From: Escherichia phage mEp460_ev081
Direction: 5' to 3' (one strand)
Length of the DNA: 45,865 nucleotides
Sequence record: LR597641
Below, in pieces: positions 22,164-44,093 of this stretch. Position numbers and translations under genes: made by a program. Position 1 is the first letter of the stretch. The number at the start of each line of letters is the position of its first letter. The notes under the pieces are model-generated. The model saw nothing but the letters and a program-made list of their open reading frames with translations. It did not search any database and was not told where the DNA came from.

Positions 22164-22738
22164 TGGCATTCAGAATGAGTGAACAACCACGGACCATAAA
22201 AATTTATAATCTGCTGGCCGGAACTAATGAATTTATTGGTGAAGGTGATGCATATATTCCGCCTCATACAGGTCTGCCAGCAAACAGTACCGATATTGCA
22301 CCGCCAGATATTCCGGCTGGCTTCGTGGCTGTTTTCAACAGTGATGAGTCATCGTGGCATCTCGTTGAAGATCATCGGGGTAAAACGGTTTATGACGTGG
22401 CTTCCGGCGACGCGTTATTTATTTCTGAACTCGGTCCGTTACCGGAAAATGTTACCTGGTTATCGCCGGAAGGGGAGTTTCAGAAGTGGAACGGCACAGC
22501 CTGGGTGAAGGATACGGAAGCAGAAAAACTGTTCCGGATCCGGGAGGCGGAAGAAACAAAAAACAACCTGATGCAGGTAGCCAGTGAGCATATTGCGCCG
22601 CTTCAGGATGCTGCAGATCTGGAAATTGCAACGGAGGAAGAAATCTCGTTGCTGGAAGCATGGAAAAAGTATCGGGTATTGCTGAACCGTGTTGATACGT
22701 CAACTGCACAGGATATTGAATGGCCAGCACTGCCGTAG
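22163..22738 (+). CDS. tfa: Tail fiber assembly protein Tfa
   Basis: 191 aa; start overlaps the stf stop; conserved Tfa-like C-terminus ([29 protein letters not shown]). Confidence 0.9.
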
Positions 22739-29557: not shown

Positions 29558-29615
29558 AAAAAGGGCGGCAGAGCAGTCACGGAGTAAAACTGATACCGCC
29601 AAACGTCACCAGAAA
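29558..29615 (-). ncRNA. dicF: DicF small regulatory RNA
   Basis: Reverse complement reads TTTCTGGTGACGTTTGGCGGTATCAGTTTTACTCCGTGACTGCTCTGCCGCCCTTTTT, matching E. coli DicF (ftsZ-targeting sRNA) with its intrinsic terminator; located between the ydfBC-like gene and dicB as in Qin. Confidence 0.8.
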
Positions 29616-33821: not shown

Positions 33822-35171
33822 TTATTCCGTTTTACATATCATAGTAGTCGATTGGAGAATATAGTTTCTGGGAATGTACTCTTCAAAGTGTTCGTCCTTT
33901 TTAAATACATGAACTACATTTGGGAATAATTGATAGTCAACAGGGTGTATAGCGTTTGGATTATGGTACATGTACATGGCTGTACACCATGGTTCTTGAT
34001 AGTTAGGGTCACTTACATCGGCTGAAAATGGATGTGGGGCTGCATCCTGATCAGTTTTAACACCACTGACGTACACTTTGAATCCACTCGCCTCTACACC
34101 TGCAAGAATTCCCATCCGGTTAAACTTAGGTATGGTTGCTTGAGTAGTGAGTAAAACGGCAGAAACATAATTATTTTGTTCTGAGCCAAAAAAGTTCGAC
34201 TTGATACTTCTATTTTCATCTGTATGTCTTTCAATAGAAATGCCTGACTCAATATCAATCCCGTACAAATAGCTATGCAAGGCTTCGCTTGAGAAGGCCA
34301 TGGACATTCTTTTTGAATAATCCTGCATTGCTATGACAAATGGTTTGTTCTTTGTATGGTTGAGTTCCCAGTAATGAACTTTCTCTGGCTCAGGGCAATG
34401 CCGGACTTTTTTTAATAAACTTCTTGCAAACTTAAAAGGCATGACATTTAGAACATGTTTTCTTAATTCATCCATCTGTTCATCGTTAATGACTTTTCTT
34501 TCAAGAGGGGCTTCTGCTTCAGCAATGCTTACAGCCTCTACAGCAATTTCCACTCCAAATTTAGATAGCAGAAAATCTGGTTGATTGTATTCTCTATTCA
34601 TTTCAAAGTCGAGTTCATAAAATACAGCGTTCAAATATAATTCAAATAACCTTGAATTAAATGCATCACTTTGAAAATCCCTTATAAATATTCCATCAGG
34701 ATCTTTGAACCAGTATGCAAGTTCCTCAAGAACAATATATGCAGGGAAATGAAGAGGGTCTTCGAGGAGCATTTTTATATAAACATTCCTTTTTTTCTCT
34801 GGGACTTTACTCAAGAATAATGAAAAAGGTTTGGATGATTCATCGCCTTGCATGAATGTACCATTTTGGTGCTGCGCCAGCATCTTTGGTATGTCATCGT
34901 TCAAATTATTAAGCAAGACATCCATTGAATCAAATGAAGCCAAGACGTTTATTGCTCTGAATTTTTTATCTAAATCCCGACCTAAGACTATTGCGTTAAA
35001 ATCTTTATCAATATTGCATATGATTATTGTGGATAACAATGTTATCCCATTCCCCTCATATTTAAACCAGCGTATCTCCTCAGAAAATGTCTTAAGGTAA
35101 GGTGAGCGACCGTAAAAATAAATATCAAATTGTTCTTTGCTGATCTCACTGAAGTGTAATCCTGCGTTCAT
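33822..35171 (-). CDS. Hypothetical protein, AT-rich orphan gene (candidate accessory/defence cargo)
   Basis: 449-aa uninterrupted ORF on the strand opposite its neighbours, in a markedly AT-rich segment; no P-loop, HEXXH, RT or other motif I can recognise. Confidence 0.7.
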   Translation of the reverse strand: MNAGLHFSEISKEQFDIYFYGRSPYLKTFSEEIRWFKYEGNGITLLSTIIICNIDKDFNAIVLGRDLDKKFRAINVLASFDSMDVLLNNLNDDIPKMLAQHQNGTFMQGDESSKPFSLFLSKVPEKKRNVYIKMLLEDPLHFPAYIVLEELAYWFKDPDGIFIRDFQSDAFNSRLFELYLNAVFYELDFEMNREYNQPDFLLSKFGVEIAVEAVSIAEAEAPLERKVINDEQMDELRKHVLNVMPFKFARSLLKKVRHCPEPEKVHYWELNHTKNKPFVIAMQDYSKRMSMAFSSEALHSYLYGIDIESGISIERHTDENRSIKSNFFGSEQNNYVSAVLLTTQATIPKFNRMGILAGVEASGFKVYVSGVKTDQDAAPHPFSADVSDPNYQEPWCTAMYMYHNPNAIHPVDYQLFPNVVHVFKKDEHFEEYIPRNYILQSTTMICKTE

Positions 35172-35322: not shown

Positions 35323-35613
35323 ATCTGACCACACTGTTAACTGGAGTAACGACTATGGCAGGAATACAGCATAACCAAACTCACCCCAAACTTACATAGC
35401 GCTTTCTGGCCGTGAGCATAACAAGGTCCACTCCTCGCTCAAAGCGGACTAGAAGGTTAGCTTGTGTCGGACTTTGCGTATTAAATGACTAGTGGTTGAG
35501 CCCCATTTCCACAGAAAAAATCAGAGAAACTATACCCAATAGTTGTATTGAATCACTGACGAGACAGCCTCATATTCATCAGGACTGGTGTACGTCCAAT
35601 ACAGGAGGTTGTG

Positions 35614-35703
35614 GTGCTGGTTCTCAAATGTGCGCTGGCTATTACGGCTGTAATGGCGATTTATTGTCTTGCTATTGTTCTTATGGATCGCCTTTCTGAC
35701 TGA
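35614..35703 (+). CDS. Small hydrophobic peptide (29 aa; type I toxin-like or small membrane protein), tentative
   Basis: GGAGG (35604-35608) followed 5 nt later by GTG; encodes MLVLKCALAITAVMAIYCLAIVLMDRLSD, one predicted TM helix with a charged tail; the overlapping frame-0 Cys/Gly-rich ORF looks like an alternative-frame artefact. Confidence 0.35.
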   Translation: MLVLKCALAITAVMAIYCLAIVLMDRLSD

Positions 35704-35914
35704 TTTCACATTGGCGAGGTAACGGTAGTTAAGTAGAATGGCTGCGGGTGCTTGAGGCTATCTGCCTCGGGCATGAACACCAACGGCAGATAGAGAAAAG
35801 CCCCAGTTAACATTACGCGTCCTGCAAGACGCTTAACATTAATCTGAGGCCAATTTCATGCTAGACACATGTAGGTTAGCCTCTTACGTGCCGAAAGGCA
35901 AGGAGAAGCAGGCT

Positions 35915-36070
35915 ATGAAGCAGCAAAAGGCGATGTTAATCGCCCTGATCGTCATCTGTTTAACCGTCATAGTGACGGCACTGGTAACGAGGAAAGACCT
36001 CTGCGAGGTACGAATCCGAACCGGGCAGACGGAGGTCGCTGTCTTCACAGCTTACGAACCTGAGGAGTAA
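35915..36070 (+). CDS. hok: Hok/Gef-family type I toxin (HokD/RelF-like)
   Basis: 51 aa MKQQKAMLIALIVICLTVIVTALVTRKDLCEVRIRTGQTEVAVFTAYEPEE; the in-frame upstream extension from 35858 sits in the mok position; 3' fold-back region and terminator follow. Confidence 0.9.
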   Translation: MKQQKAMLIALIVICLTVIVTALVTRKDLCEVRIRTGQTEVAVFTAYEPEE

Positions 36071-36138
36071 GAGACCCGGCGAGGGAGAAATCCCTCGCCA
36101 CCTCTGATGTGGCAGGCATCCTCAACGCACCCGCACTT

Positions 36139-36168
36139 AACCCGCTTCGGCGGGTTTTTGTTTTTATT
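36139..36168 (+). terminator. hok mRNA terminator
   Basis: cccgcttcggcggg hairpin followed by tttttgtttttatttt. Confidence 0.6.
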
Positions 36169-36286
36169 TTCAACGCGTTTGAAGTTCTGGACGGTGCCGG
36201 AATAGAATCAAAAATACTTAAGTAGCGCGCAGGGATAAGAGGGATGGTCCCTTAAAGGGGAGAGCTAATTATCCGGAAGGATTCTG

Positions 36287-39282: not shown

Positions 39283-39358
39283 GGCCCTTTAGCTCAGTGG
39301 TGAGAGCGAGCGACTCATAATCGCCAGGTCGCTGGTTCAAATCCAGCAAGGGCCACCA
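39283..39358 (+). tRNA. tRNA with CAU anticodon (Met, or Ile2 if lysidine-modified; ileZ-like)
   Basis: 76-nt cloverleaf: acceptor GGCCCTT/AAGGGCC, D-arm AGCTCAGTGG, anticodon loop CTCATAA, T-arm GGTTCAAATCC, 3' CCA. Confidence 0.85.
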
Positions 39359-39458: not shown

Positions 39459-39535
39459 GCGTTGTTAGCTCAGCCGGACAGAGCAATTGCCTTCTAAGCA
39501 ATCGGTCACTGGTTCGAATCCAGTACAGCGCGCCA
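39459..39535 (+). tRNA. tRNA-Arg (UCU anticodon; argN/argO-like)
   Basis: 77-nt cloverleaf: acceptor GCGTTGT/ACAGCGC, anticodon loop CTTCTAA, T-arm GGTTCGAATCC, 3' CCA. Confidence 0.85.
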
Positions 39536-39999: not shown

Positions 40000-40473
40000 A
40001 TACATATCTGGATTATCACCTGTTACGGTAAAAAGTGATTGCTTACTGTTTTTGTGAATGGCATTGCAGCAGCCGGATAATGTCAGTGCTGGCTGACGGT
40101 GTGCTGGTGGCGGGTGTGGTGGTTGTTGCTTTCCCGTTGCTGAAAAAGAAAACGCCAGACTGTTAGCCGGGTATCAGTTAGCGGGAGAAATTTTTAAATA
40201 CTTCACAATTCAGGCGGTTGACTGTTCTCTGGTTTGCGGGGAGTTTGTTAAAAGAAACTGGCATGGTGAATCCCCCTGTGCGGAGGGGCAATCAGCGAGT
40301 AGGTATATGGGATAATCGCGGATTCAGGTGCTGGTACTGAATTCACCGGGAGGCACCCGGCACCATGCACTTCAATAGATTCTCTCCACATTATGGATAT
40401 TCTTTCAGAATATCCCACGCAGACTTTGTGTAAATGTTAACAAATGTGCGTTTTATTTGATCTGATTCGCTGT

Positions 40474-43314: not shown

Positions 43315-43677
43315 ATTAATATTAAATCGGATTATTTTTAGCGCTGAATGTGAAATTTAAATAAAAAGGACTCTTCCATGAGTCAAAATCCTTGAAATCT
43401 TAAGGGTAAGATAAAAGGTCATTAGACAGAATGACACGTTTTATTAATAAATAAAGCTATTGTTTCATTCGTGTGTTTTTCTTTACAAAAGTAATCCTTG
43501 CTATGGTTGGTTAATCATGCGTTAATGGTGTTCTGGTTTGTTACAAAATTATCTGAAGCAGTCATTGTTATAATTTTATTATTTGTACCTCTTGAGATTT
43601 CCTTGTTGGTTTTTCTCTCTGATATTTTTTTTCGGACCATTCTGCCCAAGGGCTAACTTCTTCAAAAGGTAATAATG

Positions 43678-43890
43678 ATGTCTAACAAAATGACTGGTTT
43701 AGTGAAATGGTTTAACCCTGAAAAAGGTTTTGGTTTCATCACGCCGAAAGATGGTAGCAAAGATGTGTTTGTGCATTTCTCAGCTATTCAGAGCAACGAT
43801 TTCAAAACGTTAACTGAGAATCAGGAAGTCGAATTTGGTATTGAGAACGGACCTAAAGGCCCTGCAGCTGTTCATGTAGTGGCACTTTGA
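43678..43890 (+). CDS. Cold-shock protein (CspA family; CspI/CspB-like)
   Basis: 70 aa with RNP motifs (KGFGFI, VFVHF); long AT-rich 5' UTR typical of csp genes. Confidence 0.9.
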
Positions 43891-44093
43891 GGTAGAAAAT
43901 ATTACAAACCATATTCACTTTAGATGCCCGTGTTGCCATGGTTCTCAGTATAGAACATCATCTTTTGATGTTTCTGACAGAAATCCTTTCGGGGCAAAAT
44001 GTATCTTTTGTAAATCAATGATGATTACATTTGATAATATTTCACAATACTTAAATGTTAGCCATCTGTCGTTAGATTTAAGAAAGTGAAAAT

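What the first reader, a model, noticed from the sequence alone, without database searches (positions are those of the whole stretch)
35700..36170. hok/sok-type type I toxin-antitoxin locus inside the phage early region
A 51-aa Hok-family toxin, apparently identical to HokD/RelF, with an upstream in-frame extension in the mok position and a terminator-bearing 3' fold-back region. The Sok antisense RNA should be encoded on the opposite strand in the leader but cannot be placed by eye. It may support prophage maintenance or abortive infection.
Basis: partly seen in the sequence, partly recalled or inferred. Interest (0 to 1): 0.4.

Follow-up and report, generated by a model that had tools for sequence, protein, structure and literature searches.

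The report
Intact prophage hok/sok toxin-antitoxin cassette
This is an intact copy of a well-known small killer-gene module (Hok membrane toxin held in check by the Sok antisense RNA), carried by an E. coli lambdoid prophage and nearly identical to a version already studied experimentally, so it is real but ordinary.

Summary
Window 35915-36070 (+) encodes a 51-aa Hok-family peptide that is 100% identical to E. coli K-12 HokD. An in-frame ATG at 35858 gives a 70-aa Mok-type extension. The full hok mRNA anatomy is present: promoter, tac, ucb, mok SD, dcb, 3' stem-loop, fbi and terminator.

Its promoter is TTGCCT-17-TAACCT (35901->35873), and it has a 5' single-stranded tail, a long hairpin and a U-tract. 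The promoter is identical to the sokW promoter of Sakai prophage 5, which was tested by mutation.

The cassette (~35727-36165) is 94% identical to hokW-sokW. It is 100% identical to chromosomal loci that PGAP annotates as hokD, and it occurs in about 1400 of 5426 complete E. coli genomes. K-12 hokD is the truncated form: homology starts only at about 35900.

The one less ordinary point is variability. Among near-identical relatives, the most variable stretch of the mRNA is the target of the Sok 5' tail, while the target hairpin is kept. This may reflect diversification of Sok specificity.

Verdict: already known; low interest.

The parts
35711..35739 (+). hok promoter: -35 TTGGCG (35711-35716), 17-nt spacer, -10 TAGAAT (34-39)
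   Evidence: Consensus scan, 9/12 matches. The -10 and the start region are conserved in Sp5 hokW. The inferred TSS at 35746 is position 1 of the Rfam model and of R1 hok mRNA.
35746..36166 (+). full-length hok mRNA (about 421 nt)
   Evidence: MFE -174 kcal/mol, z = -6.0 against shuffles. Alignment to R1, hokC, Rac and Sp5 loci.
35746..35757 (+). tac (translational activator element) at the 5' end, GGGUGCUUGAGG
   Evidence: Pairs with fbi in the full-length MFE. Pairs with ucb in the Rfam consensus structure. 99-100% paired across 68 relatives.
35798..35806 (+). ucb / anti-SD (AAGCCCCAG)
   Evidence: Pairs with the mok SD in the full-length MFE, with the same C-A mismatch as in R1 (PMC9841398). 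Pairs with tac in the open form.
35807..35843 (+). hairpin between ucb and mok SD; its complement forms the terminator hairpin of Sok
   Evidence: Compensatory changes at 3 pairs (helix 5).
35846..35849 (+). mok Shine-Dalgarno GAGG
   Evidence: Aligned to the R1 mok SD, G105-G108. Lies 8 nt upstream of the ATG at 35858.
35858..36070 (+). mok reading frame (70 aa), in frame with hok
   Evidence: 93% identical to Sp5 orf74. K-12 mokC is likewise an in-frame extension of hokC. 57-nt offset in most relatives and 56 nt in a minority.
35879..35883 (+). dcb (GCCUC), pairs with the mok SD in the processed mRNA
   Evidence: Rfam consensus hairpin. The constrained open fold is within 1.1 kcal/mol of the MFE of the truncated RNA.
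35900..35905 (+). hok Shine-Dalgarno AAGGAG
   Evidence: Read from the sequence. Homology with K-12 hokD begins here.
35915..36070 (+). hok toxin gene (51 aa; HokD allele)
   Evidence: Pfam PF01848 at 1.2e-23. 100% identical to K-12 HokD. PGAP annotates the identical locus as hokD.
36078..36099 (+). 3' stem-loop, the presumed road-block that defines the processed mRNA 3' end
   Evidence: 9-bp stem. 99.3% paired, with changes on both sides at 4 pairs (helix 6).
36120..36132 (+). fbi (fold-back inhibitory element), CCUCAACGCACCC
   Evidence: The 15-nt stretch 35744-35758, which contains tac, forms a duplex of -27.3 kcal/mol with the fbi region (14 bp). Within the mRNA from the inferred TSS the pairing is 12 bp with one bulge at 36126, and C/U variation falls at the bulged base.
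36139..36166 (+). intrinsic terminator of hok mRNA
   Evidence: Terminator scan: 7-bp stem with 5 GC pairs, then a T-run. The right boundary of the cassette in relatives is 36159-36165.
35873..35901 (-). Sok promoter: -35 TTGCCT (35901->35896), 17-nt spacer, -10 TAACCT (35878->35873)
   Evidence: Identical to the Sp5 sokW promoter, whose -10 was inactivated by mutation. Same position as the R1 and Rac Sok promoters. It is the predominant allele among 80 relatives. The consensus scan did not flag it because the -10 matches only 3/6.
35790..35866 (-). Sok antisense RNA (predicted 77 nt): 5' tail, long hairpin and U-tract
   Evidence: Ends transferred from the annotated K-12 sokC through alignment A1. 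The 5' end lies 7 nt downstream of the -10. An 81-nt stretch (35866->35786) containing Sok folds at -30.5 kcal/mol, z = -4.3, and the 77-nt RNA gives the same energy; the hairpin is followed by UUUUCUCU. Sok covers the mok SD and start codon.

Best explanation
This is an intact hok/mok/sok type I toxin-antitoxin cassette of the hokD/hokW subfamily, in the nin-like region of a Qin/DicB-type lambdoid prophage of E. coli.

Mechanism, inferred from homology to R1 hok/sok and Sp5 hokW-sokW:
1. A stable hok mRNA of about 421 nt is made from 35746.
2. Its 5' tac pairs with the 3' fbi, and the ucb box sequesters the mok SD, so the full-length RNA is neither translated nor bound by Sok.
3. Slow 3' trimming back to the 36078-36099 stem-loop frees tac.
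4. tac then pairs with ucb, and the mok SD moves into a hairpin with dcb. This hairpin presents a loop (CUAGACA, 35861-35867).
5. The unstable 77-nt Sok RNA, transcribed from the opposite strand, recognises that loop through its 5' tail. It covers the mok SD and AUG, blocks mok translation and therefore the coupled hok translation, and the duplex is degraded.
6. When Sok synthesis stops, for example on prophage induction, transcription shut-off or loss of the element, Hok is made. It inserts into the inner membrane and collapses the membrane potential.

Shown here: the sequence elements, the pairings, their conservation, and identity to a validated promoter. Inferred: expression, processing, toxicity and the biological role.
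For: - Toxin: Pfam HOK_GEF at 1.2e-23; 100% identical to HokD.
- Leader: Rfam RF01794 at 115 bits.
- Closed form: tac-fbi and ucb-SDmok pairs are in the MFE of the full-length RNA.
- Open form: only 1.1 kcal/mol above the MFE once the 3' end is removed.
- Conservation in 68 relatives: tac-fbi 99.1%, ucb/SDmok helix 98.7%, tac/ucb 99.8% and 3' hairpin 99.3% paired. The closed-form structure has 14 pairs changed on both sides against 3.4 in shuffles; the open form has 5 against 1.3.
- Sok: its promoter is identical to the mutationally validated sokW promoter. Sok has the canonical tail, hairpin and U-tract shape (R1 architecture in PMC1635323).
- Relatives: 94% nucleotide identity to hokW-sokW, which was shown to be a functional type I TA. 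The cassette is a discrete unit with sharp boundaries at 35726/7 and 36159-36165 in many phage contexts.
Against: - No expression data exist for this copy.
- The Sok -10 (TAACCT) is a weak consensus match, and the generic promoter scan missed it.
- The MFE of the truncated RNA shows a 5' tac-proximal hairpin rather than tac/ucb, so the open form is only near-optimal.
- Chromosomal hok loci tested earlier (hokA, hokB, hokC) did not mediate post-segregational killing, according to the preprint 10.1101/2025.08.07.668861.
- The biological role is unsettled. In Sp5 the locus aids lysis and phage release, while R1 hok/sok excludes phage T4.
Confidence: 0.9

Rival explanations
1. The locus is a silent or decaying relic like the K-12 chromosomal hok genes. 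The elements look intact, but the cassette no longer kills, for example because Sok or hok promoter activity or mRNA processing is inadequate.
For: K-12 hokD is a truncated derivative: homology starts at about 35900 and there is no Rfam hit. Chromosomal hok loci failed post-segregational killing tests. The Sok -10 matches the consensus at only 3/6.
Against: All elements are present and about 99% paired across relatives, with compensatory changes. The Sok promoter allele is the predominant one and equals the functional sokW allele. Only 3 of 80 phage-borne relatives lack the leader. HokD peptide is toxic when expressed.
Confidence: 0.08
2. Role rival: the cassette acts mainly as an abortive-infection or defence module, forming a small defence island with the adjacent PD-T7-1 gene. 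Host transcription shut-off by an infecting phage depletes Sok and releases Hok.
For: The adjacent ORF 33822-35171 (-) matches PADLOC PD-T7-1 at 4e-157. [quoted passage not shown]
Against: The preprint found no enrichment of hok next to defence systems. The cassette occurs in many other contexts without this neighbour: most relatives share only 35727-36165. The only direct test of a prophage copy showed a pro-phage role.
Confidence: 0.25
3. Role rival: the cassette stabilises the prophage by post-segregational killing of cells that lose or excise it.
For: This is the classical function of plasmid hok/sok. The cassette travels with prophages.
Against: Chromosomal loci did not show post-segregational killing. 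In Sp5 the measured effect was on lysis and phage yield after induction. No test was made here.
Confidence: 0.2

Closest known systems
hokW-sokW (mokW) of Sakai prophage 5 / VT2-Sakai / 933W (Takada et al. 2021, PMC8621323)
   Same: 94% nucleotide identity from the hok -10 to fbi. The Sok promoter, tac, ucb, mok SD, dcb and hok SD are identical. Both have a 70-aa in-frame Mok-Hok ORF.
   Different: Five amino-acid differences in the 70-aa Mok-Hok ORF: one in the Mok extension and four in the Hok C-terminal tail. The allele of the Sok-tail target differs (CCAATTTCATGCTAGAC here, CTCAATCCATGCTGAAC in Sp5). The sequence downstream of fbi differs, so Sp5 lacks this terminator. The position in the prophage also differs.
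hokD (relF) of the E. coli K-12 Qin prophage
   Same: Identical 51-aa protein. The 3' UTR, fbi and terminator are the same, with 2 mismatches downstream of the junction at 35900. The downstream neighbours rem and ydfU are the same.
   Different: K-12 has relBE upstream. It lacks everything left of about 35900: the hok promoter, tac, ucb, the mok start, the Sok body and the Sok -10. It gives no Rfam hit. The window carries the complete form.
hokC/mokC/sokC (gef) of E. coli K-12
   Same: Same architecture with an in-frame mok. The annotated sokC was used to transfer the Sok ends. The Rfam hit is of similar strength, 118 bits.
   Different: The sokC hairpin is 18 nt shorter (59 nt against 77 nt). 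In K-12 the hokC 3' end is interrupted by IS186.
hok/mok/sok (parB) of plasmid R1
   Same: The same set of elements in the same order. The Sok promoter is at the same place (TTGCGC-17-TATCCT). The C-A mismatch in the ucb/SD helix is also shared.
   Different: About 44% protein identity is reported for HokW against Hok. R1 mok is out of frame with hok (58-nt offset). R1 has a longer 5' hairpin and a shorter Sok (64 nt).

Membership tests
[quoted passage not shown] | Hok/Gef-family toxin of about 50 aa with an N-terminal transmembrane helix | tested here: met
   PF01848 at E=1.2e-23, 82.9 bits against a cutoff of 22, covering profile positions 1-42 of 42. 100% identical to HokD.
[quoted passage not shown] | Conserved structured hok mRNA leader from +1 to the hok AUG | tested here: met
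   RF01794 at 115.3 bits against a gathering score of 59, full model 1-157. The model matches the hok-sense strand, as it also does at K-12 hokC.
[quoted passage not shown] | 5'-3' end pairing (tac/fbi) that locks the full-length mRNA | tested here: met
   12 bp plus one bulge in the MFE. The 15-nt stretch 35744-35758 forms a duplex of -27.3 kcal/mol with the fbi region. 99.1% of cells paired in 68 sequences.
[quoted passage not shown] | Overlapping mok frame whose SD alternates between ucb and dcb pairing | tested here: met
   mok is 35858-36070. The ucb/SD helix is in the full-length MFE. The tac/ucb plus SD/dcb form is 1.1 kcal/mol above the MFE of the truncated RNA. Both forms are conserved.
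[quoted passage not shown] | cis-encoded Sok antisense RNA with its own promoter, a 5' single-stranded tail and a terminator hairpin, overlapping the mok translation-initiation region | tested here: met
   The promoter is identical to the validated sokW promoter. The predicted 77-nt RNA has a tail, a hairpin and a U-tract; an 81-nt stretch containing it folds with z = -4.3. This is a sequence-level test only.
[quoted passage not shown] | Toxicity of Hok and neutralisation by Sok; 3' processing of hok mRNA | not testable with these tools
   Known for the identical HokD peptide (toxic control in 10.1101/2025.08.07.668861) and for hokW-sokW. Not measured for this copy.

The most novel reading that the evidence does not exclude
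Among prophage hokD/hokW cassettes that are otherwise about 95-100% identical, the target of the Sok 5' tail (window 35851-35866: the SD-AUG spacer plus mok codons 2-3, which includes the loop of the SD/dcb hairpin) exists as at least 11 sharply different alleles. The alleles differ at a mean of 6 of 16 positions, yet the hairpin keeps the same shape and stability (mostly -12 to -13.5 kcal/mol). This would fit diversifying selection on Sok-hok recognition specificity. Such selection would insulate the several hok/sok copies that co-reside in one E. coli genome, or between an incoming phage and a resident prophage, in the way incompatibility determinants of antisense-controlled plasmids do. The window carries one such allele (loop CUAGACA).
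Probability: 0.35. Interest if true: 0.45.

Novelty: already known. Interest (0 to 1): 0.12.

Why it matters
The finding adds little. The locus type, its mechanism and even a 94%-identical prophage copy have been characterised, and the identical sequence is annotated as hokD in many E. coli genomes.

It has three modest uses:
- It shows the complete ancestral form of the truncated K-12 hokD/relF locus, in the same Qin-type context.
- It supplies Sok coordinates, which genome annotations omit.
- It is a reminder that Rfam's 'sok' model hits the hok-sense strand.

The allelic diversity at the Sok recognition site, if selection-driven, would bear on how multiple near-identical type I TA copies avoid cross-talk.

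Tried and rejected
1. The generic sigma-70 scan found the hok promoter but not the Sok promoter, whose -10 TAACCT matches only 3/6. Sok was placed by homology instead.
2. The Rfam 'sok' hit lies on the + strand. Checking against the annotated K-12 sokC showed that the model represents the hok-sense leader. It therefore confirms leader homology but not the antisense gene.
3. Unconstrained folding of the 3'-truncated mRNA did not give the textbook tac/ucb stem. It gave a tac-proximal 5' hairpin resembling the described metastable structure. Constrained folding showed the open form is only 1.1 kcal/mol higher.
4. I tested whether co-resident copies carry different Sok-target alleles. Only two genome pairs were among the 80 IMG/VR loci, one with the same allele and one with different alleles, so the test is inconclusive.
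5. PADLOC has no model hitting Hok itself. Pfam finds nothing for Rem, for the 449-aa neighbour or for the 30-aa ORF.
6. A decayed locus was considered and rejected. All elements are intact and conserved, unlike K-12 hokD.

Full report
**What is there**

Window 35915-36070 (+) is a 51-aa ORF preceded by an AAGGAG Shine-Dalgarno at 35900-35905. It matches Pfam HOK_GEF over the full profile (E=1.2e-23) and is 51/51 identical to E. coli K-12 HokD. An in-frame ATG at 35858 extends it to 70 aa. This ORF is 93% identical to the 70-aa 'gef homolog' orf74 of phage VT2-Sakai, that is, MokW/HokW. A sigma-70-like promoter (TTGGCG-17-TAGAAT, 35711-35739) and an intrinsic terminator (36139-36156 plus a T-run) bracket the unit.

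**Genomic identity**

The 901 bases around the locus are 100% identical to several E. coli chromosomes, where PGAP calls the gene hokD. About 1414 of 5426 complete genomes hold at least 80% of that stretch. The window is collinear with one such chromosome. On the minus strand upstream are dicB/ydfD and DicF, followed by a cI/cro-like pair and replication-region genes. Next come a 449-aa gene on the minus strand, hok, rem, ydfU (DUF968), rusA, a Q antiterminator, two tRNAs and the lysis genes. This is a Qin/DicB-type lambdoid prophage, and hok sits in the nin-like region between replication and Q.

In K-12 Qin the same rem-hokD arrangement exists, but relBE lies upstream. Homology to the window starts only at about 35900, just at the hok SD, with two mismatches downstream of the junction. 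K-12 hokD thus lacks the promoter, leader, mok start and Sok, and gives no Rfam hit. The window carries the complete form.

**hok mRNA anatomy**

Rfam RF01794 ('sok') hits 35746-35920 on the + strand at 115 bits against a gathering score of 59. The model is 157 nt, ends in the hok AUG, and matches the hok-sense strand at K-12 hokC too. There the annotated sokC is on the opposite strand. So the model represents the hok leader, not the antisense RNA.

I used the element definitions summarised in PMC9841398 and alignment to R1, hokC, Rac-hok and Sp5. The elements map as follows:

| Element | Window coordinates |
|---|---|
| tac | 35746-35757 |
| ucb / anti-SD | 35798-35806 |
| mok SD (GAGG) | 35846-35849 |
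| dcb (GCCUC) | 35879-35883 |
| 3' stem-loop | 36078-36099 |
| fbi | 36120-36132 |

The MFE of the 421-nt transcript (-174 kcal/mol, z = -6.0) contains the tac-fbi helix (12 bp, one bulge). It also contains the ucb/mok-SD helix with the same internal C-A mismatch as R1. After removal of the 3' end, the 'open' form (tac/ucb plus SD/dcb) is only 1.1 kcal/mol above the MFE. The unconstrained MFE shows a tac-proximal hairpin reminiscent of the described metastable structure.

**Sok**

On the minus strand, TTGCCT (35901->35896), a 17-nt spacer and TAACCT (35878->35873) occupy the position of the R1 Sok promoter (TTGCGC-17-TATCCT). They are base-for-base identical to the Sp5 sequence. In Sp5 the sokW promoter-less mutant was made with primers YO-421/422. 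These primers change exactly this -10 (TAGGTTA to CCGGCTC on the sense strand), and the mutation abolished protection.

Transferring the annotated K-12 sokC ends through the alignment gives Sok = 35866->35790, 77 nt. The 5' end lies 7 nt downstream of the -10. The RNA has a tail of about 9-15 nt and a long hairpin followed by UUUUCUCU. An 81-nt stretch containing it (35866->35786) folds at -30.5 kcal/mol with z = -4.3, and the 77-nt RNA gives the same energy. This is the architecture established for R1 Sok: a 64-nt RNA with an 11-nt 5' tail and a stem-loop (PMC1635323). Sok covers the mok SD and AUG. Its first six bases, GUCUAG, are complementary to bases CUAGAC (35861-35866) of the loop of the SD/dcb hairpin.

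**Comparative support**

Eighty IMG/VR phage contigs encode the identical Hok. Of these, 77 keep the full leader and 3 are truncated; 2 of the 3 carry the K-12 relE-type junction. Homology to the window typically starts at 35726/7 and ends at 36159-36165. The cassette is therefore a discrete unit of about 440 bp in varied contexts.

On an alignment of 68 distinct full-length sequences, the helices are paired as follows:

| Helix | Cells paired |
|---|---|
| tac-fbi | 99.1% |
| ucb/SD | 98.7% |
| tac/ucb | 99.8% |
| 3' stem-loop | 99.3% |

On the closed-form structure, 14 pairs show changes on both sides against 3.4 +/- 1.4 in shuffles, and slid controls collapse to about 35-45% paired. The open form has 5 such pairs against 1.3. 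These sequences are closely related, so the shuffles overstate significance. The slid controls and the Rfam score are the firmer evidence.

**Function**

The mechanism given in the best explanation is inferred from homology. For the nearest relative, hokW-sokW, experiments showed the following:
- HokW is toxic and Sok-promoter-dependent protection exists.
- Protection depends partly on RNase III and Hfq.
- sokW RNA is lost and HokW accumulates in a RecA-dependent way after mitomycin C.
- Phage release is about two-fold lower without the locus.

[quoted passage not shown] Which role this copy plays is untested. The adjacent PD-T7-1 defence gene makes a defence-island reading possible, but the cassette usually travels without it.

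**The one non-routine observation**

Across the 67 non-R1 sequences, per-column entropy averages 0.165 bits. It peaks at 0.90 in 35851-35865, the highest 15-nt window of the whole mRNA. This is the target of the Sok 5' tail. The invariant mok ATG sits in the middle of it.

There are 11 alleles of the 16-nt target, differing at a mean of 6 positions. Nearly all alleles still fold into an SD/dcb hairpin of -12 to -13.5 kcal/mol with different loops, such as CUAGACA, CUGAACA, CUCUACACA, CGACA, CUCGUCA and CUCACAA. Other presumably weakly constrained parts, such as hairpin loops and 3' UTR linkers, have entropy of 0.15-0.3.

This pattern fits diversification of antisense recognition specificity, but relaxed constraint plus recombination is not excluded. 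The only two same-genome pairs available gave one identical and one different allele. The papers I searched did not mention this pattern.

**Verdict**

This is a real, intact and correctly interpreted hok/mok/sok module, and it is already known. The Sok coordinates and the element map are the added value.

Noticed in passing
window 33822-35171 (-): The 449-aa ORF immediately upstream of hok/sok has no Pfam hit but matches the PADLOC anti-phage defence protein PD-T7-1 at 4e-157 over its full length, and PD-T7-5 more weakly. PGAP calls it 'hypothetical protein'. It is inserted on the opposite strand in the prophage nin-like region, next to a partial HTH pseudogene.
   Followed up: partly
window 35851-35866 (target of the Sok 5' tail); alignment A3: This is the most variable stretch of the whole hok mRNA among near-identical relatives (entropy 0.90 against a mean of 0.165). 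There are 11 alleles differing at a mean of 6 of 16 positions, while the target hairpin keeps its shape and stability. It may reflect diversification of Sok specificity.
   Followed up: partly
window 35611-35703 (+): A 30-aa hydrophobic ORF (VLVLKCALAITAVMAIYCLAIVLMDRLSD) with a strong AGGAGG SD 5 nt upstream ends 8 nt before the hok -35. It stays open, with conservative substitutions, in 13 related loci, but 3 of them lose the GTG start. It is unannotated in most records. It could be a small membrane peptide or nothing.
   Followed up: partly
window 35746-35920 (+); L003 602-754 (-): Rfam RF01794, named 'sok antitoxin', matches the hok-sense leader (tac to the hok AUG) and not the antisense strand. 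At K-12 hokC the hit lies opposite to the annotated sokC. Automated annotation from this model would put Sok on the wrong strand and make it too long.
   Followed up: yes
window 36053-36056 (+): The hok Tyr47 codon TAC is followed by G, within GCTTACGAA. This stretch is invariant in all aligned hok loci, including R1. It is the TACG context reported for TadA A-to-I editing (Tyr to Cys) of hok mRNAs (preprint 10.1101/2025.08.07.668861).
   Followed up: no
window 22506-22704 (+), 29563-29614 (-), 40232-40422 (+), 43520-43936 (+), 39283-39355 and 39459-39532 (+): Other Rfam hits above the gathering score are IS009, DicF, STnc100 and a cspA-type thermoregulator (a cspB/cspF-like gene), plus two prophage tRNAs that PGAP annotates as Ile and Arg in the identical locus. 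All are typical cargo of a Qin-like prophage.
   Followed up: no
window ~35900; L002 (K-12 Qin): The junction between K-12 relBE and hokD maps to window position ~35900, inside the Sok -35 and just upstream of the hok SD. The K-12 arrangement therefore replaced the entire hok leader and Sok. In K-12 hokD is left with its own SD, directly downstream of relE.
   Followed up: partly
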